Origin: Patescibacteria group bacterium
GTDB lineage: Bacteria; Patescibacteriota; Patescibacteriia; GCA-002772895
Length of the DNA: 45,410 nt
Assembly: GCA_018895765.1 (NCBI GenBank)
Contig: JAHINX010000019.1
Coordinates: 1 to 45,410 of the forward strand
Direction of reading: 5' to 3'
The notes under the pieces were generated by a model. That model searched no databases. It worked only from the letters and a program-made list of their open reading frames with translations, and was not told the origin of the DNA. Shown here one piece after another: positions 2,812 through 42,861 of this stretch; positions within the stretch are counted from its first letter, which is position 1, and every line of letters starts with the position of its first letter. The position numbers and the translations under genes were made by a program.

Positions 2812-5800
2812 ATGTTTTGCCACCTCCACACACATTCTCACTATTCATTATTAGACGGACTGCCGAAGATTCCGGATATTGTTAATCGCGCGAAAGAGCT
2901 CGGAATGACAGCGGTCGCCCTTACAGACCATGGAACAACCTATGGTCTTATTGAGTTTTATAAAGCCTGTAAAAAAGCGGATATAAAACCAATTTTGGGA
3001 GTAGAGGCATATGTGGCGAGAAGAGGACATACCGACAAAGAGCCTGGAGTAGATACTAAGCCATATCACCTTGTGCTTCTTGCAAAAAATAAAGAGGGTT
3101 ATGAAAATATATTACGCCTTACATCAATAGCTCATCTTGATGGTTTCTATTATAAGCCCCGGATAGATAAAGAACTTTTGAAAAAATACGGCAAGGGAAT
3201 AATCGGGCTTTCCGCCTGTTTGAACGGCGAAATAGCGCGTGCGGTGCTCTCGGACAATATGGAAACAGCCGAACGGGCACTTGCAGAGTATAAAGATATT
3301 TTTGGCGAAGGAAATTTTTATTTGGAAATACAGCCTCAAACCGCCACAAAAAATAATGATCAGTCGCTTGCTAACGCGCGTCTTATAGAGCTTGCCAAAA
3401 AGACCAATACGCCTCTTGTTGCCACCAAAGATGTACATTATATAAACTTTGAAGATAAAGAGGCGCAGGATGCCCTTTTATGTATTCAGACGGGTACTAC
3501 TTTAGATAACCCAGATCGATTGAGTATGATGGATATTGATTGCTCTTTTTCTACAGAAGGGGATATGCGAGAGTGGTTTCCCGATACGCCCGAAGCAATA
3601 GAGAATACGGAAAAAATTGCCGAAGCTTGTAATGTAGAACTAGAGCTTGGCGGAAATATTTTGCCAAAATTTAAAACGCCAAATGGAAAATCGGATGTGG
3701 ATTATTTGCGCGAGCTTTGCGAAGAAGGTGTTAAAAAAAGATATAAAGAGATAACGCCGGAGGTCCGCGAACGTTTGGAATGGGAGCTTGATACTATCAA
3801 TAAAATGGGATTTGCTTCCTACTTTTTGATAGTTGCGGATTTTGTAAAATATGCAAAAGGCGAGGGGATAGTTGTCGGTCCGGGCCGTGGAAGCGCGGCT
3901 GGTTCAATTGTTTCTTACGTCCTTAGAGTTACCGACCTTGACCCAATACATTACAAATTACTTTTTGAAAGATTTTTAAATCCGGACAGAATATCAATGC
4001 CTGATATTGATATGGATTTTGCTGACATCAAACGTCATAAAGTTATTGAATATGTTATGGAAAAGTATGGGCGGGACAAGGTGGCCGGTATTATAACATT
4101 TGGAACAATGATGGCGCGCGCGGCAGTACGCGATGTGGGCAGGGTAATGGGTTTGCCATACGGAGAAGTGGACCGGATTGCAAAAATGATTCCAACTCCT
4201 GTGCAGGGCAGACATACACCTCTTTCACAGCATGTTGAAGAAGTAAAAGAGCTCCGCGAGCTATATAATGATAATCCGGATATAAAACGCCTTTTGGATT
4301 TGTCTATAAAAATGGAAGGAACCGTCCGCCACGCCTCACAGCACGCTTGTGCTGTGGTAATTGCCGATAAACCGCTTATGGAATATACTGCAATTCAAAA
4401 GGCACAGGGCGGAGATGTAGAAAGCGTAACCCAATATTCAATGAAGCCGATTGAAGATGTTGGCTTGCTTAAAATGGACTTTTTGGGGCTATCTAATCTT
4501 TCCATTATTCAGGATACGATAGAGATTGTTGAAGCAGTGAGTAAAATTGAAACAGGTGAAGGAACAAAAATTGATATAGAAAAAATACCACTTAATGATA
4601 AAAAGACATTTAATATTTTATCGCGCGCAGAGACGACTGGTGTTTTTCAACTTGAATCCTCTGGAATGAAGCGATATATAAAAGAACTCCAGCCAACAGA
4701 CATAGAAGACATTATTGCTATGGTGGCGTTGTATCGTCCGGGACCGATGCAATTTATTGAGTCATTTATTAATAGAAAACATGGCAGAGAAAAAATAAAA
4801 TATATGCATCCTTCTATGGAGAATGCATTGAAAAATACTTATGGTATTCCTGTTTATCAGGAACAGGTTATGCAAATATCAAAAGATATGGCAGGATTTA
4901 CTGGCGGAGAAGCGGATACTTTGCGTAAGGCGATGGGAAAAAAGATTGCTGAGTTGATGGCGAAGATGCGCGCAAAGTTTATTGCCGGCGCAACGACACA
5001 GGGTATATCAAAACAAATAGCAATAGAAGTTTTTAAGACATTAGAAGATTTTGCCGCTTATGGATTTAATCGATGTTTGACGGGAGATACGGAAGTTGTT
5101 GACATTAAAACAGGTAAAAAAGCAACGATAGTAGAACTTTATAAAGACAATAAATTAGTAAAAAATATTTTAGCATTGGAAGAAGGAACATTAAAATTTA
5201 AAAAAGCTAAGATAGAAAAAGTTTTTAGCAATGGAATAAAAGCAGTTTATGAACTAACTACGAAATTAGGCAGAAAAATTAAAGCAACCGACAATCATCC
5301 GTTTTTTATGTTTGATGGGTGGGTATTGCTCAAAGATTTAAAGATTGGGGATAAAATTGCCGTCCCAAGAGAATTAAATTTAAAACTAAATAGATATGAA
5401 ATAGATGATAAGCATTTGATTTTATTAGGTTATTTGATCGCTGAAGGCAATTTATGTCATCCCCATACATTTTATTTTTATTCTTCTAGTAAGGAAGAAA
5501 TAGACGACTATGTAAGTAATTTGGAGAGATTTGATAACACAAGAGCAACTATTAATCATAAAAAAAAGACTGCATCTATCCACACTGCGCGCAAGATTCT
5601 AAATCAAAAATCAGAAGCGATTGAATGGATTAGAAAAATTGGCGTTATGAATAAAAGAGCAACTGAAAAAGAATTGCCTGACTTTGTGTATGAGTTAAAC
5701 GAAAGGCAGCTGTCTTTATTGATATCAAAAATATTTCAAGGTGATGGATGTATCACTGTAAAGCGGAAACATCCTGAAATTTATTATGCTACCTCGTCAA

Positions 5801-7653
5801 TAAAGTTATCAAAGCAAATACATCATTTATTGTTGCGTTTGAATATTGTAAGTTCTATAAAAAAGAAAAAATTTAAATATCGGGGTGGTATTAAAATTGG
5901 GTATACCCTTCATATAAATCGTTATAGCAATATTGAAACATTTATAACAAAGATCGGCTGTTATTTTGTGGGACAGAAAAAAAGAGCGATAAAGCACATT
6001 TTAAAGACGCATCCTATATTAAATGGAACGATAAAAGCTAACGCGGCAAGAGGCAGTCGCGATATCGTACCGATAGAAATCTTAAGCCTAATAAAAAAAG
6101 AAATACAAAATAAGGGATATGCCTTGCGATCTTTTGCTAGGAAATATAGAATAGCAGAACGATTATTATTTGCCGATAAAATTAAGAAAGGGTTTTTGCG
6201 TGAAACCTTGGGCAATATAGCCGATATTTTAAAATCCAAAGAAATCAAAAAATATGCTAAAAGCGATATTTATTGGGACGAGATAGCCAGCATAAAATAT
6301 ACCGGAGAAGAAAAAACTTACGATTTAACAGTTTCTAAGTATCATAATTTTGTAGCCAATGATATTGTTGTGCATAATTCGCATGCAGCTTGTTATGCTA
6401 TGATCGCTTATCGCACAGCATATCTAAAAGCCAATTGGCCAAATTGTTTTATGGCGGCTTTGATGAATAGTGATTATGGAAATCTTGACCGAATTACAAT
6501 AGAAGTGGAAGAGTGTAAATCTTTGGGATTAGAAGTTCTTCCGCCTGATATTAATGAGTCATATTCAAAATTTTCTGTTGTGCCAAAAACAAATAAAATC
6601 CGTTTCGGTCTTTTGGCTATTAAAAATGTCGGAAGCGATATTGCGGATGCGATAATTAAAGAGCGCAAGGAAAATGGAAAGTTTGAATCATCGGAGGACT
6701 TTTTGGAACGTATTAATCATAAAAATTTGAATAAAAAATCTTTGGATGCGCTTGTGAAGTGCGGGGCAATGGATGCATTGGGCGCGAGGGCGGAGATGCT
6801 TCATAATATGCAGAAGATGCTGGATTTTAACAGAGAAATCCGTGCAGCAGCAGAAAAAACAACTGCCTGCCTTTTTGGCGGAGATGTGCTTTCCAAGCCG
6901 ACTTTGCAGATGGAACCGGCTGAACCGATAGAGAAAAAAGAAATTTTGGCTTGGGAAAAAGAGCTTCTCGGGCTTTATGTGAGCGCTCATCCGTTTTTGG
7001 ATATAAAGCCGTTAATAGCAGATTTAATTAAAAATATTGATGAGCTAAAAGAAATGAAAGACGGAAACTGGGTAAATGTTGCCGGCGTGATAACAAAAAT
7101 CCATAGCATTAGAACAAAAAAGAACGAACCGATGTGTTTTGTAACTATAGAAGATGGAATGTCTTCATTTGAGATCGTTGTTTTCCCTGGGGTGCTGGAA
7201 GGAACCCGTGAATTATGGCAAGAAGATAGTATTGTAATTGTCGGCGGGCGTCTTTCTTTTAAAGATGGGGAAATAAAAGTGCTGGCAAATAAGGTAGAGG
7301 TTGTGAGTGTTGATAATATGGAAAAAATAAAATCCGATTTTACATCGGTAAAATCGGATAAATCCCAAATCCCAAATCCCAAATCCCAACAAAACTCCAG
7401 CCCTCAAGTTCAAGATTCCGAAACTATTAGCGTCCCGACTCCCAATAGTGTGAAGGAATTTTTTAATGGTAATATTGCGCTAAAAGATGACGGATTATAT
7501 ATTTCTTTGCCAAAAACAATGAAGAAAGCGCAAGTGGAACATATAAAATTATTATTACAAAAACACCCGGGAGATACCCAAGTGTTTTTGGCTTTGCCGG
7601 ATAAGCCGGCAATTAAAACTAGTTTTAAGGTTGACGCGGAAAAATTTATTTAA
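2812..7653 (+). CDS. dnaE: DNA polymerase III alpha subunit (DnaE), intein-containing precursor
   Basis: PHP domain (HLHTHSHYSLLDG), GPGRGSAAGS, MPDIDMDF, OB fold and C-terminal domain. The conserved GFN(K/R)-SHAA motif is split by a 435-aa insert. Confidence 0.97.
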   Translation: MFCHLHTHSHYSLLDGLPKIPDIVNRAKELGMTAVALTDHGTTYGLIEFYKACKKADIKPILGVEAYVARRGHTDKEPGVDTKPYHLVLLAKNKEGYENILRLTSIAHLDGFYYKPRIDKELLKKYGKGIIGLSACLNGEIARAVLSDNMETAERALAEYKDIFGEGNFYLEIQPQTATKNNDQSLANARLIELAKKTNTPLVATKDVHYINFEDKEAQDALLCIQTGTTLDNPDRLSMMDIDCSFSTEGDMREWFPDTPEAIENTEKIAEACNVELELGGNILPKFKTPNGKSDVDYLRELCEEGVKKRYKEITPEVRERLEWELDTINKMGFASYFLIVADFVKYAKGEGIVVGPGRGSAAGSIVSYVLRVTDLDPIHYKLLFERFLNPDRISMPDIDMDFADIKRHKVIEYVMEKYGRDKVAGIITFGTMMARAAVRDVGRVMGLPYGEVDRIAKMIPTPVQGRHTPLSQHVEEVKELRELYNDNPDIKRLLDLSIKMEGTVRHASQHACAVVIADKPLMEYTAIQKAQGGDVESVTQYSMKPIEDVGLLKMDFLGLSNLSIIQDTIEIVEAVSKIETGEGTKIDIEKIPLNDKKTFNILSRAETTGVFQLESSGMKRYIKELQPTDIEDIIAMVALYRPGPMQFIESFINRKHGREKIKYMHPSMENALKNTYGIPVYQEQVMQISKDMAGFTGGEADTLRKAMGKKIAELMAKMRAKFIAGATTQGISKQIAIEVFKTLEDFAAYGFNRCLTGDTEVVDIKTGKKATIVELYKDNKLVKNILALEEGTLKFKKAKIEKVFSNGIKAVYELTTKLGRKIKATDNHPFFMFDGWVLLKDLKIGDKIAVPRELNLKLNRYEIDDKHLILLGYLIAEGNLCHPHTFYFYSSSKEEIDDYVSNLERFDNTRATINHKKKTASIHTARKILNQKSEAIEWIRKIGVMNKRATEKELPDFVYELNERQLSLLISKIFQGDGCITVKRKHPEIYYATSSIKLSKQIHHLLLRLNIVSSIKKKKFKYRGGIKIGYTLHINRYSNIETFITKIGCYFVGQKKRAIKHILKTHPILNGTIKANAARGSRDIVPIEILSLIKKEIQNKGYALRSFARKYRIAERLLFADKIKKGFLRETLGNIADILKSKEIKKYAKSDIYWDEIASIKYTGEEKTYDLTVSKYHNFVANDIVVHNSHAACYAMIAYRTAYLKANWPNCFMAALMNSDYGNLDRITIEVEECKSLGLEVLPPDINESYSKFSVVPKTNKIRFGLLAIKNVGSDIADAIIKERKENGKFESSEDFLERINHKNLNKKSLDALVKCGAMDALGARAEMLHNMQKMLDFNREIRAAAEKTTACLFGGDVLSKPTLQMEPAEPIEKKEILAWEKELLGLYVSAHPFLDIKPLIADLIKNIDELKEMKDGNWVNVAGVITKIHSIRTKKNEPMCFVTIEDGMSSFEIVVFPGVLEGTRELWQEDSIVIVGGRLSFKDGEIKVLANKVEVVSVDNMEKIKSDFTSVKSDKSQIPNPKSQQNSSPQVQDSETISVPTPNSVKEFFNGNIALKDDGLYISLPKTMKKAQVEHIKLLLQKHPGDTQVFLALPDKPAIKTSFKVDAEKFI
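5074..6378 (+). mobile_element. Intein with LAGLIDADG homing-endonuclease domain inside DnaE
   Basis: Begins CLTGDTEVV right after ...AAYGFNR and ends ...DIVVHN, followed by SHAACYAM. LAGLIDADG-type motifs are LLGYLIAEGN and LISKIFQGDGCI. Excision restores GFNR-SHAACYA. Confidence 0.9.
7360..7387 (+). repeat. (AAATCCC)x4 perfect heptanucleotide microsatellite inside dnaE
   Basis: Four exact units encode KSQIPNPKSQ in the linker before the DnaE C-terminal domain. Confidence 0.95.
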
Positions 7654-12745: not shown

Positions 12746-13768
12746 TTATGCCTTTACATTAGATCCAATGCCTTTTATAGACATTGAGCGTCCATGAATA
12801 TATATCCGACTTCTGTTTTTTGGGGTGAGCTGTTCTATGGCATCGGCAAATTTTTTGCTATGTATCTTCAGATGTTTGTTGTGGGCGCTTGATGTTATAT
12901 TATATTGCGCTATAAAGGTATCAAATTCTTTTATGTCTGCCGGGTCGAGCTTTCTCCGTACATTAAATTTTTTCCATATTCCTCCGCGCGTGACATCATA
13001 ACCGAATTTATTGAATAAGAGATTTTCTATCCGTTCTCTTCGTTCATCTAAAATTTCTATATTTTCTGAAGAGCTCTCATATTCTTCCCAGGAAAGATCC
13101 ATGCTTTCCAGCCCTTTTTTATAATACATATCCAAACTTTTTGCTTGCGCCGCTATCATAGCTTCTTTTTCTTTTGGGTTTAATTTTTCCAGATGAGCTA
13201 ACATATTATCTTCATCTATTTTATCTCCCTCTTCAAACCATTTTTGTTCCAATTTGCCAAAATTTTTATTAACTTCAGGCATATCTTCAATCTTAAACCA
13301 TTCATTATTATCTTCTATAGTATCGACATCGCTTAAATCAAATTTATTTTCAATATCATTGGACGGTTTTTCTTCTTCTATCATATCATCAGTTATTTCA
13401 ATTTCTTCTGGCTCATTTAAGGCTTGACGCAGTACCTCTGTTCTTTCTTTTGATTTTTTTTCTTTTTTATCTTTTTTGTCCCCGCCAAATAATATCTCTT
13501 TTCTTAGATTTTGAAGCCTCTCTAGTTGCTTGAATGTTTCTTTTGTCCGCTCGGTTTTTGAGCCTTGTTCCCATTTTTTCATTTTTTCTTGTGCATCGTC
13601 AACGATCTCGTTTAGCGTATTTTCAAAATCTTTTTCTTTCGCTTTCATAACCTTCCGTTTTATTTGCTGTGGGAGATCATTTATTTTTTCTTCTATCTCC
13701 TTTACTTTTTCTTCATCTTTGAAATGTTTTTTAAGATAAGGCAATTCAAAGGGGTCTTGCTTTTTCAT
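12746..13768 (-). CDS. Hypothetical K/E-rich protein (340 aa)
   Basis: Long ORF with no recognisable motif. Confidence 0.6.
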   Translation of the reverse strand: MKKQDPFELPYLKKHFKDEEKVKEIEEKINDLPQQIKRKVMKAKEKDFENTLNEIVDDAQEKMKKWEQGSKTERTKETFKQLERLQNLRKEILFGGDKKDKKEKKSKERTEVLRQALNEPEEIEITDDMIEEEKPSNDIENKFDLSDVDTIEDNNEWFKIEDMPEVNKNFGKLEQKWFEEGDKIDEDNMLAHLEKLNPKEKEAMIAAQAKSLDMYYKKGLESMDLSWEEYESSSENIEILDERRERIENLLFNKFGYDVTRGGIWKKFNVRRKLDPADIKEFDTFIAQYNITSSAHNKHLKIHSKKFADAIEQLTPKNRSRIYIHGRSMSIKGIGSNVKA

Positions 13769-13846: not shown

Positions 13847-15190
13847 ATGTTAAAGAATCTTAAATATAAAATAGTTACCTATGGATGCCAGATGAATAAA
13901 GCAGATAGTGAGAGGATTGAGGCATTATTGGATTTAAATGGTTTTGAATGCGCTTCTAAAGCAGAAGACGCTGATTTAATTTTAATAAATACTTGTTCTG
14001 TGCGTCAGACGGCAGAAGATCGGGTTTATGGGGCTATATATAATTTTTCTAAATTAAAAAAGAAAAAGCCCCATTTATTGCTAGGCGTAACTGGTTGCAT
14101 GGCTGGAAGGGATAAAAATGGCGCAATTCGTAATAAGTTTTTTTCTGCTCTTAATAATGGAGGAATCAAGGGTGGCCCGATAGATTTATTTTTCGAAATT
14201 ACTGATTTGCCTAAATTGCCAGAGATGATTGCTGAAAAATGGAAAAATAAAACTGTAGGGAGCTTAGCTCCCTACAGTAAAAAAATGGGTTATTTGGGGA
14301 TTGTGCCAAAGCCGGCTGAGTGGTGGAGGGGATGCGTTGTAATCCAAACAGGATGCTCTAAATATTGTACATATTGCGTTGTTCCATACGCGCGGGGCTC
14401 GGAGAAAAATAGATCTCTCGGCGCGGTTTTGAAAGAAGCGCGCACCCTAGTGAAAAAAGGAGCGAAAGAGATAATTTTACTCGGACAGGCAGTGAACAGT
14501 CATCCAAAATTTGCAGAAATATTAAAAAAAATAAACCAGATAGAAGGCGTAAACCGTACTAGTTTTGCATCGGCGCATCCAATGCATATGACGCCAGATG
14601 TTATAAGGGCGCTTGCTTTATCTAAGGTAGTAAATTATTTGCATTTGCCAGTTCAGTCGGGAAATGATGAGGTCTTGCGTAAGATGAATCGTAATTATAC
14701 TCGTGAAAAATATTTGCAAATAATTCGGCGCATACGCAAAGTTCGGCCGGATATTGCTTTGGCGACAGATATTATCGTTGGATTTCCCGGAGAAACACGC
14801 AAGCAGTTTCAGGATACGGTTTCGCTTTATAAAAAATGCGATTTTGATTTGAGTTATAATGCAATCTATTCTCCGAGAACAGGGACGTCCGCCTATAAAG
14901 CATTTAAGGATGATGTATCGCGCGAGGAAAAACGCCGAAGATGGCGCGTTTTGCAGGAATTGATGGAGCGTAATGTTTTGCGAAAAAATAAAAAATATTT
15001 TAATCAGACTGTTGAGGTATTGGTTGATGGATGCAGGGCGGGGAATTGCTATGGTTTGTCGCGGGAATATAAAAGGGTGGTATTTAAGGGAGATAAGCGG
15101 TTGATAGGGGAGATTGTTAATGTAAAAATTATAAAAGCAAAAGAGTGGGAGCTCAATGGGGAAATTACTAATTACGAATATGAAAAATAA
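13847..15190 (+). CDS. miaB: tRNA-2-methylthio-N6-dimethylallyladenosine synthase (radical SAM methylthiotransferase)
   Basis: YGCQMN N-domain, CSKYCTYCVVPYARG radical-SAM cluster motif and a TRAM-like C-terminus. Confidence 0.92.
   Translation: MLKNLKYKIVTYGCQMNKADSERIEALLDLNGFECASKAEDADLILINTCSVRQTAEDRVYGAIYNFSKLKKKKPHLLLGVTGCMAGRDKNGAIRNKFFSALNNGGIKGGPIDLFFEITDLPKLPEMIAEKWKNKTVGSLAPYSKKMGYLGIVPKPAEWWRGCVVIQTGCSKYCTYCVVPYARGSEKNRSLGAVLKEARTLVKKGAKEIILLGQAVNSHPKFAEILKKINQIEGVNRTSFASAHPMHMTPDVIRALALSKVVNYLHLPVQSGNDEVLRKMNRNYTREKYLQIIRRIRKVRPDIALATDIIVGFPGETRKQFQDTVSLYKKCDFDLSYNAIYSPRTGTSAYKAFKDDVSREEKRRRWRVLQELMERNVLRKNKKYFNQTVEVLVDGCRAGNCYGLSREYKRVVFKGDKRLIGEIVNVKIIKAKEWELNGEITNYEYEK
14253..14278. 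repeat. Perfect 25-bp palindrome CTGTAGGGAGCT-T-AGCTCCCTACAG in frame in miaB
   Basis: Encodes (T)VGSLAPYS. 24 nt are identical to 15372-15395 in miaA. Confidence 0.95.
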
Positions 15191-16082
15191 ACTACCAAAG
15201 TTAATCGTTATGTTGGGGCCGACGGCGAGTGGGAAGACTGAGCTTGCGATTAAGCTGGCGAAAAAGTTCAATGGCGAGATTGTCAATGCCGATTCGCGAG
15301 CGATTTACTGCGATATGAAAGTGGGAACCGACAGGCCGGGAAAAAATGAAGGTGGTGTGCGTCATCACTTAGTAGGGAGCTTAGCTCCCTACAGTGAGTT
15401 TAGCTTGGCGGAATATAAGAAGTTGGCTGTGGATAAGATTAATGATATTTTAAAGCGGGGGAAACAGCCGTTTTTAGTTGGGGGAACTTGGCTTTATATT
15501 TCTGCAATTACAAATAATTTGGAAATACCAAGCGTTAAGCCAAATAAAGTGTGGCGAAAAAGCCAAGAAAAATTTGAATCGGAAACGCTTTATAAAAAAT
15601 TACAAAAATTGGACCCGAAAGCCGCGGAACGGATTCATCCGAACGATAAACGCAGAATTATTCGCGCGCTTGAAGTGATTAATTTTAGCGGGAAAAAAAT
15701 ATCTGAACAACAAAAAAAAGGTGCGCCTATTTTTAATGTTTTAAAAATAGGGATTAAAAGAGATTTGAGTGAGGTTGAAAAGCGTGTAAGGGGACGGATA
15801 AAAACAAAAATGGGGGATGCGCTGATTCGCGAGACACGCCGTTTATTAAAAAAATATAGTTTAAAATTGCCGGCAATGTCTGGACTGGGATATCCAGAAA
15901 TGACAAGATATATAAAAGGCGAGCTTAGCAAAAAAGAGGCATTCGAGCTTTTAGCAAAAAATACGCGTCGGTTTGCAAGATATCAGACAAATACTTTTCG
16001 TCAGGATAAAAAAATTAAGTGGGTGAAGGGCGCAACTGATGCCGCGGAAAAAATTAAAAAGTTTATAAAAAATTCCGGGTAA
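15180..16082 (+). CDS. miaA: tRNA dimethylallyltransferase
   Basis: GPTASGKT P-loop, LVGGTWLY, and a family-typical length from ATG 15180. The start overlaps the miaB stop (ATGAAAAATAA). Confidence 0.9.
   Translation: MKNKLPKLIVMLGPTASGKTELAIKLAKKFNGEIVNADSRAIYCDMKVGTDRPGKNEGGVRHHLVGSLAPYSEFSLAEYKKLAVDKINDILKRGKQPFLVGGTWLYISAITNNLEIPSVKPNKVWRKSQEKFESETLYKKLQKLDPKAAERIHPNDKRRIIRALEVINFSGKKISEQQKKGAPIFNVLKIGIKRDLSEVEKRVRGRIKTKMGDALIRETRRLLKKYSLKLPAMSGLGYPEMTRYIKGELSKKEAFELLAKNTRRFARYQTNTFRQDKKIKWVKGATDAAEKIKKFIKNSG
15372..15395. repeat. Second copy of palindrome GTAGGGAGCTTAGCTCCCTACAGT, in frame in miaA
   Basis: Identical 24-mer in the same reading frame (VGSLAPYS). Confidence 0.95.
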
Positions 16083-16137
16083 ACCGGGATTTTTTAGAGC
16101 AATAATTATTGTGTAGAGAGTTTTTTTTCTACTCTTC

Positions 16138-16219
16138 TCCCCCTTTGGAAAAGGGGGATTAAGGGGGATTTAATAATAAATTTATAAATCCCTCCTGCCC
16201 TCCCTTTTCCAAAGGGAGG
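16138..16219. repeat. Triple-hairpin palindromic element (family B, copy 1)
   Basis: H1 is TCCCCCTT tggaa AAGGGGGA. H2 is GGGGGATTTA..TAAATCCCTCC. H3 is CCTCCCTT ttcca AAGGGAGG. It lies between convergent miaA and gatB. Confidence 0.85.
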
Positions 16220-16241
16220 AACTTGCTACAATGTTTAATTT

Positions 16242-17825: not shown

Positions 17826-17878
17826 TGAATATAATATAATTTTATGGGTTTTGGGAGGATTTGTCAAAAAATAATTTT

Positions 17879-17899
17879 AGGAGGTCGGGAACCAGAAAA
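17879..17899. repeat. Solo, internally deleted right end of the family C palindromic element
   Basis: AGGAGGTCGGGA|ACCAGAAAA equals 19481-19492 joined to 19522-19530. Confidence 0.7.
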
Positions 17900-17927
17900 A
17901 AACAGAAATCCGCCCTTGGGCGGATTT
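17896..17927 (-). terminator. Rho-independent terminator of the 17967 membrane-protein gene
   Basis: AAATCCGCCC tt GGGCGGATTT with a U-run on the minus strand. Confidence 0.75.
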
Positions 17928-19397: not shown

Positions 19398-19410
19398 ATT
19401 TCTTTAATTT

Positions 19411-19530
19411 TTTTCTGGTTCCCGACATCAATACAAAATTTTTCCCGAGTCCCGACCTCAAAACAAATACGGGGAACTTTAGGAGGTCGGGACTCGGGAA
19501 AAGAACTATAGAATGTTGGGAACCAGAAAA
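19411..19530. repeat. Nested perfect inverted-repeat element (family C)
   Basis: Outer arms are 13 bp (19411-19423 and 19518-19530). Inner arms are 19 bp (19441-19459 and 19483-19501). Both pairs are perfect. Confidence 0.9.
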
Positions 19531-19534
19531 GATT

Positions 19535-19575
19535 TGAACTTTGAAATTTATTGAAAATTGATCATTGATAATTGA
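19535..19575 (+). repeat. Heptamer array with TGA x6 (TGAAAAT-like units)
   Basis: TGA at 19535, 19542, 19552, 19559, 19566 and 19573. Confidence 0.85.
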
Positions 19576-24507: not shown

Positions 24508-24517
24508 ACATTTTTAT

Positions 24518-24600
24518 ACCCTCCTTTGGAAAAGGAGGGTTGGGGAGGATTTATGAATATATAATTAAATCCCCCTTACTCCCCCTTCTCCGAAGGGGGA
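24518..24600. repeat. Triple-hairpin palindromic element (family B, copy 2)
   Basis: H1 is ACCCTCCTT tggaa AAGGAGGGT. H2 is GGGGAGGATTTA..TAAATCCCCC. H3 is TCCCCCTT ctccg AAGGGGGA. H3 supplies the last 8 codons of the 24576 CDS. Confidence 0.85.
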
Positions 24601-25175
24601 AAAGTATTTATAAATCCGTCAATCTTTTTTTTGAATTCTTCCATCGAGCCGGTGTTTACAATTGTACAGTCAGCCATGGCGATTGGGCCGGCTTTATCCA
24701 GGTTTTCTATTTCCGCAAAGTCGCGCGCCCTCGCTTCTTCTTTGCTAAAATTTCTGTTCCGCAAATCAATATCATCTTTATCTGAAAATCTTTTTGAAAT
24801 CCGTTCATAGCGGAGTTCGGGCGGAGCATAGATAGCAACTATGGTTAGGCGCTCGTTATAATAATCTTTTAAAATTTTATATTCATCCCAGCTGTAAAGT
24901 CCGTCGGCAACAAGATTTTTATCTTCCAAAACTTTATCAAATTTTGGGATATTTAAAGTTGCATAAGCGCCCATTCCATGCTCTTTGCGTATTGCTTCGC
25001 GGACTTCTCTTTCGTTTTTTTCATTGGGTTCTAATCCGCGTTCTTTTATGATATCTAGAGTAATTTGTCCAAAACGGACAAAACCCCATCCGTGCGCAAC
25101 AAACGCGTCTGCTAAAATACTTTTGCCGGAACCGCACATCCCGACGATGGCAATTATTTTATTTTTATTATTCAT
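24576..25175 (-). CDS. P-loop nucleoside/nucleotide kinase-like protein (adenylate-kinase / dephospho-CoA-kinase-like)
   Basis: Walker A IVGMCGSGKS near the N-terminus, 199 aa. Substrate not inferable. Confidence 0.55.
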   Translation of the reverse strand: MNNKNKIIAIVGMCGSGKSILADAFVAHGWGFVRFGQITLDIIKERGLEPNEKNEREVREAIRKEHGMGAYATLNIPKFDKVLEDKNLVADGLYSWDEYKILKDYYNERLTIVAIYAPPELRYERISKRFSDKDDIDLRNRNFSKEEARARDFAEIENLDKAGPIAMADCTIVNTGSMEEFKKKIDGFINTFPPSEKGE

Positions 25176-29567: not shown

Positions 29568-32891
<3,324 letters not shown>

Positions 32892-37306: not shown

Positions 37307-37323
37307 CTACTTACTACGTACTA
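37307..37323 (-). repeat. GTAGNNN heptamer trailer on the minus strand, including the real prmC stop
   Basis: CTA at 37307, 37314 (the stop) and 37321. About 25 of 30 nt are identical to 17930-17959. Confidence 0.85.
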
Positions 37324-38285
37324 CATTTCATTACTCGCCATTTACCCGAAAGGTCTTTTGTAAATTCTATTTTTTTTGGTTTGAGTATTTTTTGTGCCAG
37401 TTTTTCTATCGCTGGTTTTTGTTTTGCGCCGATTTCTATTATTAATGTAATATTATTAATTTTTATATCGCGGATTTGTTCAAATAATTTTTTGTAAATC
37501 TCTGTGCCGGTTTTTCCTCCGACCAGCGCCCCCTTTGGTTCGTGGCGCTTTACTTCGGGTTGAGCTTTGGTCCATTCTTCTTGGGAGAGGTAGGGGAGAT
37601 TGGCGGTAATTACTATCGGGTTCCCGACTCCCGATAGTTTATTTTTCGAGTTTTTCACAGATTTTTCCGCTAAGCTTAGTATATCAAGAGATGGTTTCTT
37701 AATGTACAGTAAATCACCTTTTTTTATTGTGATTTTTGCGCCGAGCGCGTGGGCATTTTTTTGCGTCAGCGCTATTGCCTTGGGGCTGATTTCTATTGCC
37801 AACACGCGGGTGCGCGGGAATTCTTTTTTCAAAGTGATTGCAATTGCTCCGCTTCCAACCCCTACATCAACTATTTTTAAACTATTGGAAGCCAGGCTTC
37901 CAATAGTTTTTTTTGCGACGTCGATTAGGGTCTCGGTGTCCGGGCGGGGGATGAGGACGGCCGGAGAGACAAAAAAGTTTCGGCTGTAAAATTCTTTTTT
38001 GCCTGTGATGTAGGCGATTGGCTCGCGCTTTCTGCGACGAGCGATAAATTTTTTGTATTTTGCAATTTGCGCGGAAGTTAATTTTTTTTCAGGGTAAGTG
38101 AATAAAAATTCTTTTGGCTTGCCGAGCACAAAGGAAAGCAAAATTTCCGCATCCAAGAAAGCGGTATTAAAGGTCGACTTTAAATACCCCTTTCTTTTTT
38201 CCGTGTTTTTCGTAGTCCCGACAAGTCGGGACGAAGAATCGGTGAGATTTTTTACGCCCCATTTTAGGGCCTCGCTTATTGTCAT
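37314..38285 (-). CDS. prmC: Release-factor glutamine N5-methyltransferase (PrmC/HemK) with two ~22-aa inserts
   Basis: VDVGVGSGAIAI SAM motif and an NLPY variant of NPPY, located upstream of prfA. Confidence 0.88.
   Translation of the reverse strand: MTISEALKWGVKNLTDSSSRLVGTTKNTEKRKGYLKSTFNTAFLDAEILLSFVLGKPKEFLFTYPEKKLTSAQIAKYKKFIARRRKREPIAYITGKKEFYSRNFFVSPAVLIPRPDTETLIDVAKKTIGSLASNSLKIVDVGVGSGAIAITLKKEFPRTRVLAIEISPKAIALTQKNAHALGAKITIKKGDLLYIKKPSLDILSLAEKSVKNSKNKLSGVGNPIVITANLPYLSQEEWTKAQPEVKRHEPKGALVGGKTGTEIYKKLFEQIRDIKINNITLIIEIGAKQKPAIEKLAQKILKPKKIEFTKDLSGKWRVMKCST
37613..37637. repeat. In-frame palindrome CTATCGGG-ttcccgact-CCCGATAG inside prmC
   Basis: Encodes LSGVGNPI. It shares the 10-mer GGTTCCCGAC with 19417-19426. 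Confidence 0.85.
38215..38232. repeat. In-frame palindrome GTCCCGAC-aa-GTCGGGAC inside prmC
   Basis: Encodes SRLVGT. It has the same 8-mer arms as the family C inner arms (19449-19456). Confidence 0.85.
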
Positions 38286-38310
38286 ATACTTTTATCTTAC
38301 GCTATTTCAA

Positions 38311-38347
38311 TAAATAAAAAAATATTCAGAGCCCAACTCTGAATATT
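38311..38347 (-). terminator. Rho-independent terminator after prfA
   Basis: AATATTCAGAG cccaa CTCTGAATATT, 11-bp perfect arms, with a U-run on the minus strand. Confidence 0.7.
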
Positions 38348-38401
38348 AGAAAGAGATGTATTTTGCAAACGGAGAATGCCAGACGTTATTGCAAGATGTC
38401 A

Positions 38402-39418
38402 TTATTTTCCCTCCTGTCTGTCCGCTTCTTTTAGTTTTTCGATAATTGGTTTTATTTCGCCACTTAATATTTTTTCCATATTATGCCAGGATTCTTTGAT
38501 GCGGTGGTCGGTTATTCTGTCCTGTGGATAATTATATGTACGGATTTTTTCGCTTCGGTCGCCAGTTCCGATTTGTGATTTTCTCATTTCTCGCTCTTCT
38601 TTTTTACGCTTTTCTTGTTCTATATCAAATAGTCGCGCGCGCATAATTTCTATTGCGCGTAATTTGTTTTGTTGTTGAGACTTTTGGTCTTGGCATTTTA
38701 CGATGAGTCCTGTTGGAACGTGCGTTAAAATAATTGCGGAATATGTTGTATTAACAGATTGTCCGCCAGGACCTTGTGAGGTTGATGTTTTGATCTCTAA
38801 ATCTTTTGGGTCTATTTTAAATTCTATTTCATCAACTTCCGGTAGTACGGCAACGGTGGCGGCGGAAGTATGGATTCGTCCGCTTTTTTCTGTTTCAGGG
38901 ATTCTTTGAACGCGGTGGACGCCACTTTCATATTTTAGCCAGCCATAAACACCTTCACCATCTATTTTAGCAATTATTTCTTTAAATCCGCCAATTCCAA
39001 TTTGGTTTGAAGACAAAATTTTTACATCCCATCCCATATTTTCGGCAAAATGTGAATACATTCTGAAAAGCTCGGCGCTAAAAAGCGCAGCTTCATCTCC
39101 GCCTGTTCCGGCGCGAATTTCTATGATAATTGATTTTTTATCTAATGGATTTTTTGGGGAAAGACTTTCTTCTATTTCTTTTTTTTCTTTTTCCAGATTT
39201 GGTAGTTCTGACTCTAATTCCGGATCTTTTTTTGCGGTTTCAATATCTACTTCTATCAGTTCTAGCCTTTTCATTAATTCTATAGTTTCTTTTAATTTGG
39301 CATATTCTTTGTTCAATTTTTTAAATTTTTCCGGATTAGAAAAAATAGCCGGTTCTGATAGTTGGCCTTCCAATTCTTTTAACTGTTCTTCGGTTTTAAT
39401 GATTTTTTCTTTATCCAT
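38402..39418 (-). CDS. prfA: Peptide chain release factor 1
   Basis: RIHTSAATVAVLPE and SQGPGGQSVNTT (GGQ). Confidence 0.95.
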   Translation of the reverse strand: MDKEKIIKTEEQLKELEGQLSEPAIFSNPEKFKKLNKEYAKLKETIELMKRLELIEVDIETAKKDPELESELPNLEKEKKEIEESLSPKNPLDKKSIIIEIRAGTGGDEAALFSAELFRMYSHFAENMGWDVKILSSNQIGIGGFKEIIAKIDGEGVYGWLKYESGVHRVQRIPETEKSGRIHTSAATVAVLPEVDEIEFKIDPKDLEIKTSTSQGPGGQSVNTTYSAIILTHVPTGLIVKCQDQKSQQQNKLRAIEIMRARLFDIEQEKRKKEEREMRKSQIGTGDRSEKIRTYNYPQDRITDHRIKESWHNMEKILSGEIKPIIEKLKEADRQEGK

Positions 39419-42020: not shown

Positions 42021-42046
42021 AAAATATTTGCATGATATACTAGTTT

Positions 42047-42071
42047 ATGTGCAGAATCCAATCTCGCACAT
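42047..42071 (+). repeat. REP hairpin copy 1 (ATGTGCAGAATCCAATCTCGCACAT)
   Basis: Lies 24 nt upstream of the RAYT start, with ATGTGC/GCACAT arms. Confidence 0.85.
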
Positions 42072-42094
42072 AATAAAAATTAATAAAAAGTTTT

Positions 42095-42781
42095 ATGATT
42101 AGACCAACACTATCAGTGAATGACCATGCACATATTTATAATAGAGGAGTAGATAAGCGTATTGTTTTTAATGAAAACGCGGACTACGCGAGATTTGTTC
42201 ATACGTTGTATATATGTAACGATACAGAGTTTACTGTGAAGAATTTAAATCGAATGATTGAAAATGTGCAGAATCCAATCTTGCACATCGGAGAACGAAC
42301 CGGTGAGAGATTTGTAGATATTTTATGTTTTACGTTAATGCCGAATCATTTTCATCTTTTATTAAGACAAAATATTGATAAGGGGATATCCAAGTTTATG
42401 CATAAAATTGGTATTGCTTATACATTATACTTTAATTTAAAAAATGAACGAACGGGGTCTTTGTTTGAGGGCAAGTATAAATATAAAATTGTAAATAATG
42501 AGCAGTATTTGGTTTATTTATCCCAGTATATTCATTTAAATCCAATAAAAATTATAGAGCCGAAGTGGAAAGAGAAGGGGATAACTAATTGGAAACAGGC
42601 CAATGATTTTTTGGAAATGTATAAGTGGTCGAGTTATCAAGATTATATTGGTATTAAAAACCTTCCGTCGGTTATTAATCCGGGATTATTGGGAGAATAT
42701 TATGAAAAACCAGAGAAGTATAAAAAATTTGTAAATAGTTATTTGGTTGAAGATCTAGATAAGATTATAAATCTATCATAA
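42095..42781 (+). CDS. REP-associated tyrosine transposase (RAYT, IS200/IS605-like Y1 HUH enzyme)
   Basis: HUH motif MPNHFHLLL and catalytic-Tyr motif YIHLNPIK, flanked by REP copies. Confidence 0.85.
   Translation: MIRPTLSVNDHAHIYNRGVDKRIVFNENADYARFVHTLYICNDTEFTVKNLNRMIENVQNPILHIGERTGERFVDILCFTLMPNHFHLLLRQNIDKGISKFMHKIGIAYTLYFNLKNERTGSLFEGKYKYKIVNNEQYLVYLSQYIHLNPIKIIEPKWKEKGITNWKQANDFLEMYKWSSYQDYIGIKNLPSVINPGLLGEYYEKPEKYKKFVNSYLVEDLDKIINLS
42264..42288 (+). repeat. REP copy 2, inside the RAYT coding sequence (1 mismatch)
   Basis: ATGTGCAGAATCCAATCTTGCACAT encodes NVQNPILHI. Confidence 0.85.
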
Positions 42782-42805
42782 TGTGCAGAATCCAATCTCG
42801 CACAT
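42781..42805 (+). repeat. REP copy 3, starting at the last base of the RAYT stop
   Basis: Identical 25-mer. Confidence 0.9.
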
Positions 42806-42836
42806 TATGTATTTATTTTTTTGTTATTGCCTTCTC

Positions 42837-42861
42837 GTGTGCGAGATTGGATTCTGCACAT
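42837..42861 (-). repeat. REP copy 4, inverted (24 of 25)
   Basis: GTGTGCGAGATTGGATTCTGCACAT. It forms an inverted doublet with copy 3. Confidence 0.88.

What the first reader, a model, noticed from the sequence alone, without database searches (positions are those of the whole stretch)
37613..38232. prmC carries two in-frame palindromic inserts made of family C repeat words (RPE-like behaviour)
Compared with E. coli PrmC by eye-alignment, this PrmC has about 22 extra residues before the DAEILL helix and about 22 extra residues just before the N(P/L)PY motif. Each extra segment contains a palindrome.
- GTCCCGAC-aa-GTCGGGAC at 38215-38232, encoding SRLVGT.
- CTATCGGG-ttcccgact-CCCGATAG at 37613-37637, encoding LSGVGNPI.

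Their arms reuse words of the intergenic family C element. GTCCCGAC matches 19449-19456 and GGTTCCCGAC matches 19417-19426. This resembles Rickettsia palindromic elements, which insert in frame into protein genes.
Basis: partly seen in the sequence, partly recalled or inferred. Interest (0 to 1): 0.65.

Follow-up and report, generated by a model that had tools for sequence, protein, structure and literature searches.

The report
Tiny palindromic repeats inside protein genes
In this ultra-small (Patescibacteria) bacterium, the prmC gene and several other housekeeping genes carry short DNA palindromes from a dispersed repeat family that are read through as extra protein loops, which resembles the palindromic elements of Rickettsia but at about one fifth the size and in a lineage where this has not been described.

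Summary
They lie in two roughly 22-residue extra segments of PrmC. The closest syntenic genome lacks both segments.

The real unit is a 27-nt, 9-codon palindrome: ACT RTN GGR - 9 nt - YCC NAY AGT. It also sits in frame in miaB, miaA and dnaE of this window, and in unrelated genes on other contigs.

All 11 prmC orthologues with DNA that carry these loop inserts have palindromes at the same loop sites. The arms show compensatory changes and the centres are sometimes flipped.
- prmC holds 2.3 hairpins per kb, against 0.18 per kb in neighbouring genes.
- Codon shuffling predicts 1.4 hairpins where 27 are seen.

In one related genome, copies in different genes share a single variant, while orthologous sites in other genomes carry different variants. 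That is concerted evolution.

The link to "family C" rests only on shared 8-10-nt words.

Best reading: selfish, REP/RPE-like mini-palindromes that are tolerated in surface loops, translated, and kept symmetric by template switching or gene conversion. They are not members of the RPE families, and they are not the cognate repeats of the RAYT-like transposase found in the window. How they spread is inferred, not shown.

The parts
37314..38285 (-). prmC (release-factor glutamine methyltransferase), 323 aa, with motif N-L-P-Y. It is the host gene of three palindromic sites.
   Evidence: ORF. Pfam PrmC_N plus methyltransferase domains. PDB HemK/PrmC matches at 2e-34.
38215..38232 (.). Palindrome A: GTCCCGAC aa GTCGGGAC, encoding residues 18-24 (SSRLVGT). 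On the + strand a GTAG tetranucleotide (38212-38215) abuts the stem.
   Evidence: DNA hairpin -7.3 kcal/mol, z = -3.0.
38163..38240 (-). N-terminal extra segment of about 23 residues, absent from the closest relative. It contains palindrome A and a second, imperfect hairpin GGTATTTAAAG-TCGA-CCTTTAATACC at about 38163-38190.
   Evidence: Pairwise alignment with L137. Fold -6.9 kcal/mol, z = -2.75. Model pLDDT below 50 at residues 23-25 and 30-39.
37879..37909 (.). The core 27-mer is 37881-37907 and encodes (K)TIGSLASNS(L), just before the D-V-G-V-G-S-G SAM motif (called 'site 1' here).
   Evidence: Fold -13.5 kcal/mol, z = -6.6. The orthologous 27-nt unit is present in all 11 orthologues that carry loop inserts, with compensatory arm changes.
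37612..37638 (.). Palindrome C: ACTATCGGG ttcccgact CCCGATAGT, a 27-mer read in frame +1 as LSGVGNPIV, just before N-L-P-Y ('site 2'). The centre contains GGTTCCCGAC.
   Evidence: The same site and frame in L089 carries the unit with its centre inverted. Model pLDDT below 50 at residues 215-219.
37644..37706 (-). The rest of the site-2 extra segment (about 21 residues, YIKKPSLDILSLAEKSVKNSK), with a 10-bp palindrome CTAAGCTTAG at 37670-37679.
14252..14278 (.). 27-mer ACTGTAGGGAGCT t AGCTCCCTACAGT in frame in miaB, encoding TVGSLAPYS.
   Evidence: The unit is at the same MiaB site in many clade members, decayed in the closest relative and absent from distant ones.
15369..15395 (.). TTAGTAGGGAGCTTAGCTCCCTACAGT in frame in miaA, encoding LVGSLAPYS. 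The perfect palindrome is 15372-15392. It replaces a segment of equal length in the conserved HHLxD region.
   Evidence: Gap-free alignment to solved MiaA structures. Homologue alignment. DNA comparison with L138.
7423..7449 (.). Degenerate 27-mer ACTATTAGCGTCCCGACTCCCAATAGT in the C-terminal tail of dnaE, encoding TISVPTPNS. Its centre resembles that of palindrome C.
19403..19538 (.). Intergenic 'family C' element, a nested inverted repeat. The outer arms hold CTGGTTCCCGACAT and the inner arms are 20 nt, TTTTCCCGAGTCCCGACCTC, 100% complementary. It shares the words GGTTCCCGAC and GTCCCGAC with palindromes C and A.
17870..17900 (.). Partial family C copy (AGGAGGTCGGGAACCAGAAAAAAA) in the gatB upstream spacer. 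A further GTCGGGAACC is at 2533-2542.

Best explanation
prmC, miaB, miaA and the tail of dnaE in this Patescibacteria genome are colonised by very short palindromic repeat elements.

**The unit.** The main family is a 27-nt, 9-codon unit: a 9-nt arm, a 9-nt centre and a 9-nt arm, with consensus ACT RTN GGR ... YCC NAY AGT. Palindrome A and the intergenic family C share a core word with it.

**Shown.**
- Identical or near-identical units occur in unrelated genes, in two reading frames and both centre orientations, and in intergenic DNA.
- They never break the reading frame.
- They fall in predicted inter-element loops.

**Inferred.**
- The units are selfish, REP/RPE-like DNA and are translated into neutral surface loops.
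- Selection keeps only copies that land in permissive loops. That would explain why the same few sites are occupied in all orthologues.
- The palindromic symmetry is actively renewed at the DNA level. The mechanism would be hairpin-templated template switching, which also flips the centres, and/or short-patch conversion from other genomic copies. This would give compensatory arm changes and genome-specific variants.
- The enzyme responsible, if any, is unknown.
For: **1. A dispersed family.**
- The same 27-mer is in miaB and miaA of the window, in a GT2 glycosyltransferase on L116 and in intergenic DNA on L103.
- Related units are in a dus-like gene (L103) and in an L11-L1 spacer (L089).
- The pattern has 4 window hits against 0.16 expected and no hits in 1.33 Mb of unrelated loci.

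**2. Acts at the DNA level, not the peptide level.**
- The peptides differ (TIGSLASNS, TVGGRTPYS, LSGVGNPIV) while the symmetry holds.
- Palindrome C is read in another frame.
- The centres are inverted between orthologues: WIN against L089 at site 2, and L087 against L089/L090 at site 1.

**3. Symmetry is maintained.**
- In 11 orthologues of 45-60% amino-acid identity, 92% of arm cells pair.
- 3 of 9 pairs show double compensatory changes, and 0 of 500 shuffles reach this.
- V pairs with Y and I pairs with N/D again in MiaB.

**4. Turnover and concerted evolution.**
- L089's prmC site 1 and site 2 units are 26/27 identical to each other.
- MiaB from what is probably the same MAG encodes the same variant and its flipped form.
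- WIN carries other variants at the orthologous sites.
- The closest genome has a 274-aa prmC with none of these units.

**5. Enrichment.** prmC holds 2.30 hairpins per kb against 0.18 per kb in other CDS. 27 are observed against 1.4 after codon shuffling.

**6. Loops.** The model has low-pLDDT coil at residues 21-39 and 195-222, and coil at residues 130-136 with a modest pLDDT dip (block mean about 80).

**7. Larger relatives behave like RPEs.**
- A roughly 90-nt composite is intergenic in the window and in frame in L091 prmC.
- An LPAE..GFSAVR.AG element is shared by a MiaA and a PrmC.

**8. Precedent.**
- Intragenic REPs are known (PMC3733652).
- RPEs are known (PMC10969869).
- Template switching as a keeper of coding palindromes has been proposed (PMC6649704).
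Against: - No transposition intermediate, target-site duplication or presence/absence polymorphism within a population was seen.
- In miaA the unit replaces 8-9 codons without changing length. Simple insertion does not explain that.
- The RAYT-like gene in the window is flanked by a different palindrome. The closest relative has that gene but no 27-mers in 41 kb.
- Copy number per genome is unknown. Only 5 units were seen in 45 kb, all of them in CDS.
- Long persistence of perfect hairpins could equally reflect selection for a function.
- Translation of the inserts is inferred from preserved reading frames only.
- The same-MAG assignment in point 4 rests on neighbouring NCBI accession numbers.
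Confidence: 0.6

Rival explanations
1. The hairpins are functional structures kept by selection. They could act in the mRNA (pausing, stability, processing) or in DNA (a binding site for a dimeric protein, a replication or transcription signal). They sit in translation-related genes (prmC, miaA, miaB).
For: Compensatory arm changes and conserved positions across diverged orthologues. A conserved YCCGAC core in many centres. Stable folds with z from -3 to -8. Enrichment in prmC.
Against: - The centres occur in both orientations relative to transcription, which argues against an RNA loop signal.
- Many units are perfect palindromes with a 0-1-nt centre, which an RNA hairpin does not need.
- The closest relative does without them in prmC, and its miaB copy has decayed.
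- The units also occur in a glycosyltransferase, a dus-like gene, dnaE and spacers.
- No Rfam family matches.
Confidence: 0.17
2. The palindromes arise locally. Replication template switching turns quasi-palindromic loop-coding DNA into perfect palindromes, with no mobility between sites.
For: - Unique long palindromes of 24, 39 and 52 bp in L081 and a 27-bp one in L083 have no seen copies elsewhere.
- In miaA the palindrome uses the pre-existing V-G...P codons.
- Loop flips also occur in an unrelated gut hairpin.
- The mechanism is documented (PMC6649704, PMC5941160).
Against: - Local origin cannot give the identical 27-mer, including its 9-nt centre, in miaB, miaA, a GT2 gene and a spacer.
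- It cannot give the same roughly 90-nt composite in a spacer and in L091 prmC.
- It cannot give genome-specific variants shared between genes.
- This process is probably part of the maintenance, not the whole story.
Confidence: 0.13
3. A short peptide motif (T-[IV]-G-x-x-x-[PS]-[YND]-S) is selected at the protein level, and the DNA symmetry is incidental.
For: The motif recurs in frame 0 in PrmC, MiaB, MiaA, GT2 and a Dus-like protein.
Against: - The I-with-N/D and V-with-Y coupling is explained by base pairing, not by protein chemistry.
- The unit is also read in frame +1 as LSGVGNPIV / LSDFRLPIV.
- It occurs in non-coding spacers.
- It lies in low-confidence loops.
Confidence: 0.04
4. The palindromes are an assembly or amplification artefact, such as inverted chimeras.
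For: Perfect palindromes can arise from strand-displacement amplification (PMC9484634, title only).
Against: - The same palindromes appear in independent assemblies: L081 (ENA), L082 (NCBI) and L119 (JGI) at 99.9% identity, and L083/L084 from two Tara samples.
- They are always in frame, at homologous loop sites, in 11 orthologues from different studies.
Confidence: 0.01

Closest known systems
Rickettsia palindromic elements (RPE)
   Same: Palindromic repeats inserted in frame into unrelated housekeeping genes and also found between genes. The encoded segment is tolerated by the protein fold (PMC10969869). The roughly 90-nt composite and the LPAE..GFSAVR element in related genomes match this behaviour closely.
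   Different: - RPEs are about 150 bp, with family-specific conserved peptides. The window units are 18-31 nt.
- RPEs are reported to lose repeat identity with time (statement in PMC6649704). Here symmetry is kept or renewed across orthologues of 45-60% identity, and the centres flip.
- The host lineage is different.
- No sequence relationship to RPE families was tested.
Intragenic GTAG/CGTC-tagged REPs and REPINs (RAYT-associated)
   Same: - Similar size class: 20-40 nt, stems of 5-13 bp, loops of 2-20 nt.
- REPs occur inside genes in some species and encode short peptide inserts, often as inverted dimers (PMC3733652). L085 and L090 carry such inverted doublets.
- GTAG is present in the GTA variants and next to palindrome A.
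- A RAYT-like Y1 transposase is encoded in the window.
   Different: - The RAYT-like gene is flanked by a different palindrome, GTGCAGAATCCAATCTCGCAC.
- GTAG lies inside the paired stem and is absent from the ATY variants.
- All five window copies are intragenic, whereas REPs are mostly extragenic.
- REPs have not been reported in Patescibacteria. PMC3733652 lists Proteobacteria, Cyanobacteria, Chloroflexi and PVC.
Coding palindromes in Nematomorpha mitochondrial genes
   Same: Perfect inverted repeats embedded in translated genes. Repeat identity is all-or-nothing, with dynamic gain and loss. Active maintenance by template switching or conversion was proposed, possibly with a parasitic character (PMC6649704). 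The miaA case here, an equal-length overlay on conserved codons, is similar.
   Different: Those repeats reach 284 bp, are unique to each site, cover conserved protein regions and occur in an organelle. Here the units are 27 nt, belong to dispersed families and sit mostly in variable loops.
Small dispersed repeats (SDR) of Nostoc/Anabaena; 'byp' elements of Magnusiomyces mitochondria
   Same: SDRs are mobile-looking repeats of about 21-27 nt that can sit inside genes (my recollection of Elhai et al. 2008; cited as SDR in PMC3116915). Byps are short palindromic inserts in coding genes (mentioned in PMC6649704).
   Different: SDR details come from memory and were not checked here. Byps are skipped by translational bypassing and need not keep the frame. 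Here every unit preserves the frame, which suggests ordinary translation.

Membership tests
Rickettsia palindromic elements (RPE) | A palindromic repeat that can fold into a hairpin | tested here: met
   Perfect arms of 8-15 nt. DNA folds of -7 to -13.5 kcal/mol with z from -3 to -8.
Rickettsia palindromic elements (RPE) | Copies in frame in unrelated ORFs and also in intergenic DNA | tested here: met
   In frame in prmC, miaB, miaA and dnaE, in a GT2 gene and a dus-like gene on other contigs, and in spacers on L103 and L089.
Rickettsia palindromic elements (RPE) | Element length of about 100-150 bp with a family-specific encoded peptide | tested here: not met
   The window units are 18, 27 and 31 nt. 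Only the roughly 90-nt composite seen in L091 prmC approaches RPE size. The size reference is PMC10969869.
Rickettsia palindromic elements (RPE) | Sequence similarity to the RPE-1 to RPE-10 consensus sequences | not tested
   No RPE consensus sequences were available in the tools. The lineage is Patescibacteria.
Rickettsia palindromic elements (RPE) | The insert lies in a surface or loop region compatible with the fold | tested here: met
   AlphaFold model with mean pLDDT 87. The inserts fall in coil or low-pLDDT stretches at residues 21-39, 130-136 and 195-222, between secondary-structure elements. Solvent exposure was not computed.
REP / REPIN (RAYT-mobilised) | A short palindromic repeat of 20-40 nt, often in inverted doublets | tested here: met
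   27-nt units. Inverted doublets at prmC site 1 in L085 and L090, and a nested inverted repeat in family C.
REP / REPIN (RAYT-mobilised) | A GTAG (or CGTC) tag at one end | tested here: inconclusive
   GTAG is present in the ACTGTAGG variants and at 38212-38215 next to palindrome A. It is base-paired within the arm, and it is absent from the ACTATYGG variants.
REP / REPIN (RAYT-mobilised) | The cognate RAYT gene is flanked by the same repeat | tested here: not met
   The Y1 transposase-like ORF at 42095-42781 matches Pfam PF01797 (E 2.8e-8) and NCBIfam REP_Tyr_transpos at 37 bits, below the cut-off of 80. It is flanked by GTGCAGAATCCAATCTCGCAC, not by the 27-mers.
REP / REPIN (RAYT-mobilised) | High copy number, predominantly extragenic | not testable with these tools
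   Only 45 kb of the genome is available. Within it, 5 of 5 units are intragenic.
MITE | Terminal inverted repeats plus a target-site duplication | tested here: inconclusive
   The whole unit is an inverted repeat. No flanking direct repeat beyond A-runs was seen at miaB, miaA or prmC.
PrmC/HemK (host gene) | PrmC N-terminal domain, SAM-binding GxGxG motif and N-P-P-Y motif | tested here: met
   PF17827 at 5.4e-17 plus methyltransferase domains. D-V-G-V-G-S-G is present. The fourth motif is N-L-P-Y, invariant in 25 clade members. The gene lies next to prfA.

The most novel reading that the evidence does not exclude
A clade of Patescibacteria hosts a self-renewing class of 27-nt 'coding palindromes'. 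They would spread not by classical insertion but by short-patch overwriting of codons at sites that already resemble their arms, as in miaA. They would be re-symmetrised and flipped by hairpin-templated synthesis, so that orthologous sites are kept while their contents are replaced by each genome's current variant. This would be a new mode of selfish-DNA propagation inside genes, and the smallest protein-coding mobile unit known. It might be driven by an unidentified hairpin-specific enzyme.
Probability: 0.2. Interest if true: 0.8.

Novelty: new variant of a known kind. Interest (0 to 1): 0.62.

Why it matters
**Protein evolution in reduced genomes.** If these units are what they appear to be, protein length and loop diversity in the reduced genomes of Patescibacteria are shaped partly by tiny palindromic repeats written into genes. 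That affects several things:
- how orthologues are aligned;
- how hypervariable regions and lineage-specific inserts in CPR proteins are interpreted;
- how gene callers and repeat finders treat these genomes.

**A system for studying how palindromes persist.** The data also offer a compact natural case of how DNA palindromes survive inside essential genes:
- compensatory arm changes;
- flip-flop centres;
- genome-specific variants at orthologous sites.

Hairpin-templated repair or conversion can be studied here and compared with RPEs, intragenic REPs and mitochondrial coding palindromes.

**Limits.** The underlying phenomenon, palindromic repeats translated within genes, is already known. The novelty lies in the size, the lineage and the dynamics, not in the category.

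Tried and rejected
- **Genome-contig scan with the PrmC alignment.** It was useful only as a 1.33-Mb negative control.
- **Metagenome-contig scan for ACTGTAGGG-N9-CCCTACAGT.** About half of the 44 hits are an unrelated human-gut hairpin. Only L101, L103, L116 and L119 belong to this clade.
- **Census of TVGSLAPYS-containing proteins.** A 9-residue match cannot reach that.
- **Rfam.** No family matched in the window.
- **RAYT link.** The window does encode a RAYT-like protein, but its flanking repeats are a different sequence. The closest relative has the gene without the 27-mers. I therefore do not claim it as the mobilising enzyme.
- **'prmC evolves abnormally fast'.** prmC shows 52% identity against 72-96% for most neighbouring genes. 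This is better explained by a recombined prfA-prmC block, which is closer to L081 than to the otherwise closest genome.
- **Simple '27-nt insertion' for all copies.** miaA shows equal-length replacement, so this was rejected. In miaB the apparent replacement is a decayed old copy in the relative.
- **Literature.** Searches for Patescibacteria or CPR combined with palindromes or in-frame inserts found nothing relevant.
Full report
**1.

The ORF 37314..38285 (minus strand, 323 aa) is prmC. It has a PrmC_N domain plus methyltransferase domains and matches solved HemK/PrmC structures at 2e-34. It lies downstream of prfA and rpmE.

- GTCCCGAC-aa-GTCGGGAC is at 38215-38232.
- CTATCGGG-ttcccgact-CCCGATAG is at 37613-37637, and extends to 9-nt arms at 37612-37638.
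- They encode SRLVGT and LSGVGNPI.

The extra segments are real.
- Relative to E. coli PrmC, the protein has 22 extra N-terminal residues and 21 extra residues before the N-x-P-Y motif.
- Relative to its closest syntenic relative, it has 23, 8 and 21 extra residues at three sites.

- The strongest palindrome in the gene is a 31-bp perfect one at 37879-37909. It encodes KTIGSLASNSL, just before the SAM-binding D-V-G-V-G-S-G motif.
- The N-terminal insert holds a second, imperfect hairpin at about 38163-38190.

**2. The family C link is real but thin.**

GTCCCGAC occurs 5 times against 0.27 expected. GGTTCCCGAC occurs 4 times exactly, at 2533, 17884, 19417 and 37619. With up to one mismatch it gives 5 matches against 0.79 expected.

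These are genuine repeated words, shared with the nested intergenic inverted repeat at 19403-19538. The similarity does not extend beyond 8-10 nt around a TCCCGAC core.

**3. What the unit really is.**

Palindromes B and C belong to a 27-nt, nine-codon family: ACT RTN GGR, then 9 nt, then YCC NAY AGT.

The window holds five copies, all inside genes.

| Gene | Coordinates | Sequence or peptide |
|---|---|---|
| miaB | 14252-14278 | ACTGTAGGGAGCTtAGCTCCCTACAGT, TVGSLAPYS |
| miaA | 15369-15395 | LVGSLAPYS |
| prmC site 1 | 37881-37907 | TIGSLASNS |
| prmC site 2 | 37612-37638 | frame +1, LSGVGNPIV |
| dnaE tail | 7423-7449 | degenerate copy, TISVPTPNS |

- The pattern has 4 hits against 0.16 expected in the window.
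- It has none in 1.33 Mb of unrelated bacterial prmC loci.

The identical miaB 27-mer occurs in frame in an unrelated GT2 glycosyltransferase (L116) and in a spacer (L103). Relatives occur in a dus-like gene (L103) and in an L11-L1 spacer (L089).

The miaB unit and the prmC site-1 unit differ at 8 of 27 positions. All eight form four mirror-image pairs (sequences).

**4. Orthologues.**

I fetched DNA for 10 prmC orthologues of 45-60% identity, all syntenic, plus the closest genome.

Every one of the 11 genes that carry loop inserts (the window's prmC and those 10 orthologues) has perfect palindromes at the variable-length loop sites. All 11 carry a 27-nt unit at the identical codon position of site 1. 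The arms co-vary: ATT/AAT, ATC/GAT, GTA/TAC, ATA/TAT, GGA/TCC and GGG/CCC.
- 92% of arm cells pair.
- 3 of 9 pairs show double changes.
- 0 of 500 shuffles reach this.

The centres often hold YCCGAC, in either orientation. WIN and L089 carry the same site-2 unit in the same frame with the centre inverted. L085 and L090 carry inverted doublets.

Other orthologues carry different palindromes, or none at all.
- L081 has 24-, 39- and 52-bp perfect palindromes.
- L085 and L092 have ATTCCCGC-N4-GCGGGAAT pairs.
- L091 has a roughly 90-nt composite that is intergenic in the window, at 16130-16225 and 24510-24608.
- A MiaA (P0138) and a PrmC (P0004) share an in-frame LPAE..GFSAVR.AG segment.

Across the 12 contigs, prmC holds 2.30 perfect hairpins per kb against 0.18 per kb in other CDS. 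Codon-shuffled prmC genes give 1.4 +/- 1.1 against 27 observed.

Independent assemblies agree, so this is not an artefact.

**5. Gain, loss and homogenisation.**

The closest genome (L137 and L138, one 104-kb contig) is 72-96% identical for nearly all of the roughly 35 syntenic proteins (one unannotated protein is about 40%). Its prmC is 274 aa with no insert and no palindrome.

The low prmC identity (52%) reflects a recombined prfA-prmC block, which is closer to L081.

In MiaB the unit sits at one site in many clade members: TVGSLAPYS, TIGYHVPNS, TIGLTMSNS, TVGVPVSYS, TIGSLAPYS and TIGFPTSDS. It has decayed in the closest relative (VKNTQKPYS, with the right arm CCT TAT AGT surviving). It is absent from distant Patescibacteria.

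In MiaA the unit replaces a segment of equal length in the conserved HHLxD region: HHLVGFLLPDKDF becomes HHLVGSLAPYSEF. Solved MiaA structures align to it without gaps. The replacement is shared with an 80%-identical homologue, yet it is absent from the 84%-identical closest relative.

In the L089 genome, prmC site 1 and site 2 are 26/27 identical. MiaB from what is probably the same MAG, judged by neighbouring accessions, encodes the same variant and its flipped form. Orthologous sites in the window carry other variants.

The sites are therefore orthologous, but their contents behave like paralogues.

**6. Structure.**

An AlphaFold model (mean pLDDT 87, pTM 0.83) puts all three prmC sites in coil between secondary-structure elements.
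- pLDDT is below 50 at residues 23-25, 30-39 and 215-219.
- It dips at residues 130-136.

The other insert sites used by the orthologues also fall between secondary-structure elements.

**7. Interpretation.**

The units act at the DNA level. The peptides differ, two reading frames are used, both centre orientations occur, and copies sit in spacers. A peptide motif is therefore unlikely.

Perfect centres of 0-1 nt and centre flips argue against an RNA-loop signal.

Identical units in unrelated genes argue against a purely local origin. Local template switching remains the most economical explanation for the symmetry maintenance and the flips, as proposed for mitochondrial coding palindromes (PMC6649704).

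The behaviour matches intragenic REPs (PMC3733652) and RPEs (PMC10969869). Membership in either family fails on defining features.
- Size is wrong for RPEs.
- The cognate-RAYT and extragenic features of REPs are not met.

The window does encode a RAYT-like Y1 transposase (42095-42781), but a different palindrome flanks it.

How copies arrive at a site, by insertion or by short-patch conversion, and whether the inserts are translated, are both inferences.

**8. Verdict.**

This is a new variant of a known kind: REP/RPE-like palindromic repeats translated within genes. Three things are notable.
- The 27-nt unit size.
- The Patescibacteria host, for which two literature searches combining Patescibacteria or CPR with palindromes found no description.
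- The evidence for active symmetry maintenance and within-genome homogenisation.

Noticed in passing
window 42045-42861: A 228-aa RAYT-like Y1 (HUH) transposase ORF at 42095-42781. It matches Pfam PF01797 and, best in NCBIfam, REP-associated tyrosine transposase (below the cut-off). Four copies of its own palindrome GTGCAGAATCCAATCTCGCAC surround it: at 42049, at 42266 (in frame inside its own CDS), at 42783 and, inverted, at 42839. The gene and repeat are syntenic, next to tsf, in the closest relative (L137 5018-5773).
   Followed up: partly
window 16130-16225 and 24510-24608: A roughly 90-nt composite palindromic element: CCTCCCTTTggaAAAGGGAGG ... GGGATTT/AAATCCC ... TCCCCCTTTtccAAAGGGGGA. 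It is intergenic here, and the second copy supplies the last codons of the kinase-like ORF 24576-25175. The same composite is in frame in the C-terminal loop of L091 prmC and upstream of L087 prmC.
   Followed up: partly
window 37314-39418 versus L081 and L137: The prfA-prmC block is closer to L081 (prfA 80%, prmC 60%) than to the otherwise closest genome L137 (72%, 52%). The flanking rpmE, DUF3048, L25 and ftsW genes are much closer to L137 (79-93%). This suggests a recombined segment.
   Followed up: partly
window 2812-7653 and 29568-32885: Both dnaE and gyrB contain inteins, with intein splicing-domain matches; dnaE also has a LAGLIDADG match. The gyrB of the closest relative is 671 aa, so it lacks the intein.
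   Followed up: no
window 7332-7400: The dnaE C-terminal tail also holds a 28-bp hairpin, ATCCGATTTTAC atcg GTAAAATCGGAT (KSDFTSVKSD), and a tandem AAATCCC x4 repeat (KSQIPNPKSQ). The tail looks like a dump for short repeats.
   Followed up: no
window 37590-37601 (PrmC residues 229-232): The catalytic motif is N-L-P-Y rather than the canonical N-P-P-Y. It is invariant in all 25 aligned Patescibacteria PrmC sequences.
   Followed up: no
L094/L095 and about 20 other human-gut contigs: An unrelated gut-metagenome hairpin, ACTGTAGGG gcagacagc CCCTACAGT, occurs with its 9-nt loop in both orientations between otherwise identical flanks. This is an independent example of hairpin-loop flipping.
   Followed up: no
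window 12746-13768: An unannotated 340-aa protein is only about 40% identical, with 37 gaps, to its syntenic counterpart in the closest genome, while neighbouring genes are 72-96% identical. No palindromes were seen in it.
   Followed up: no
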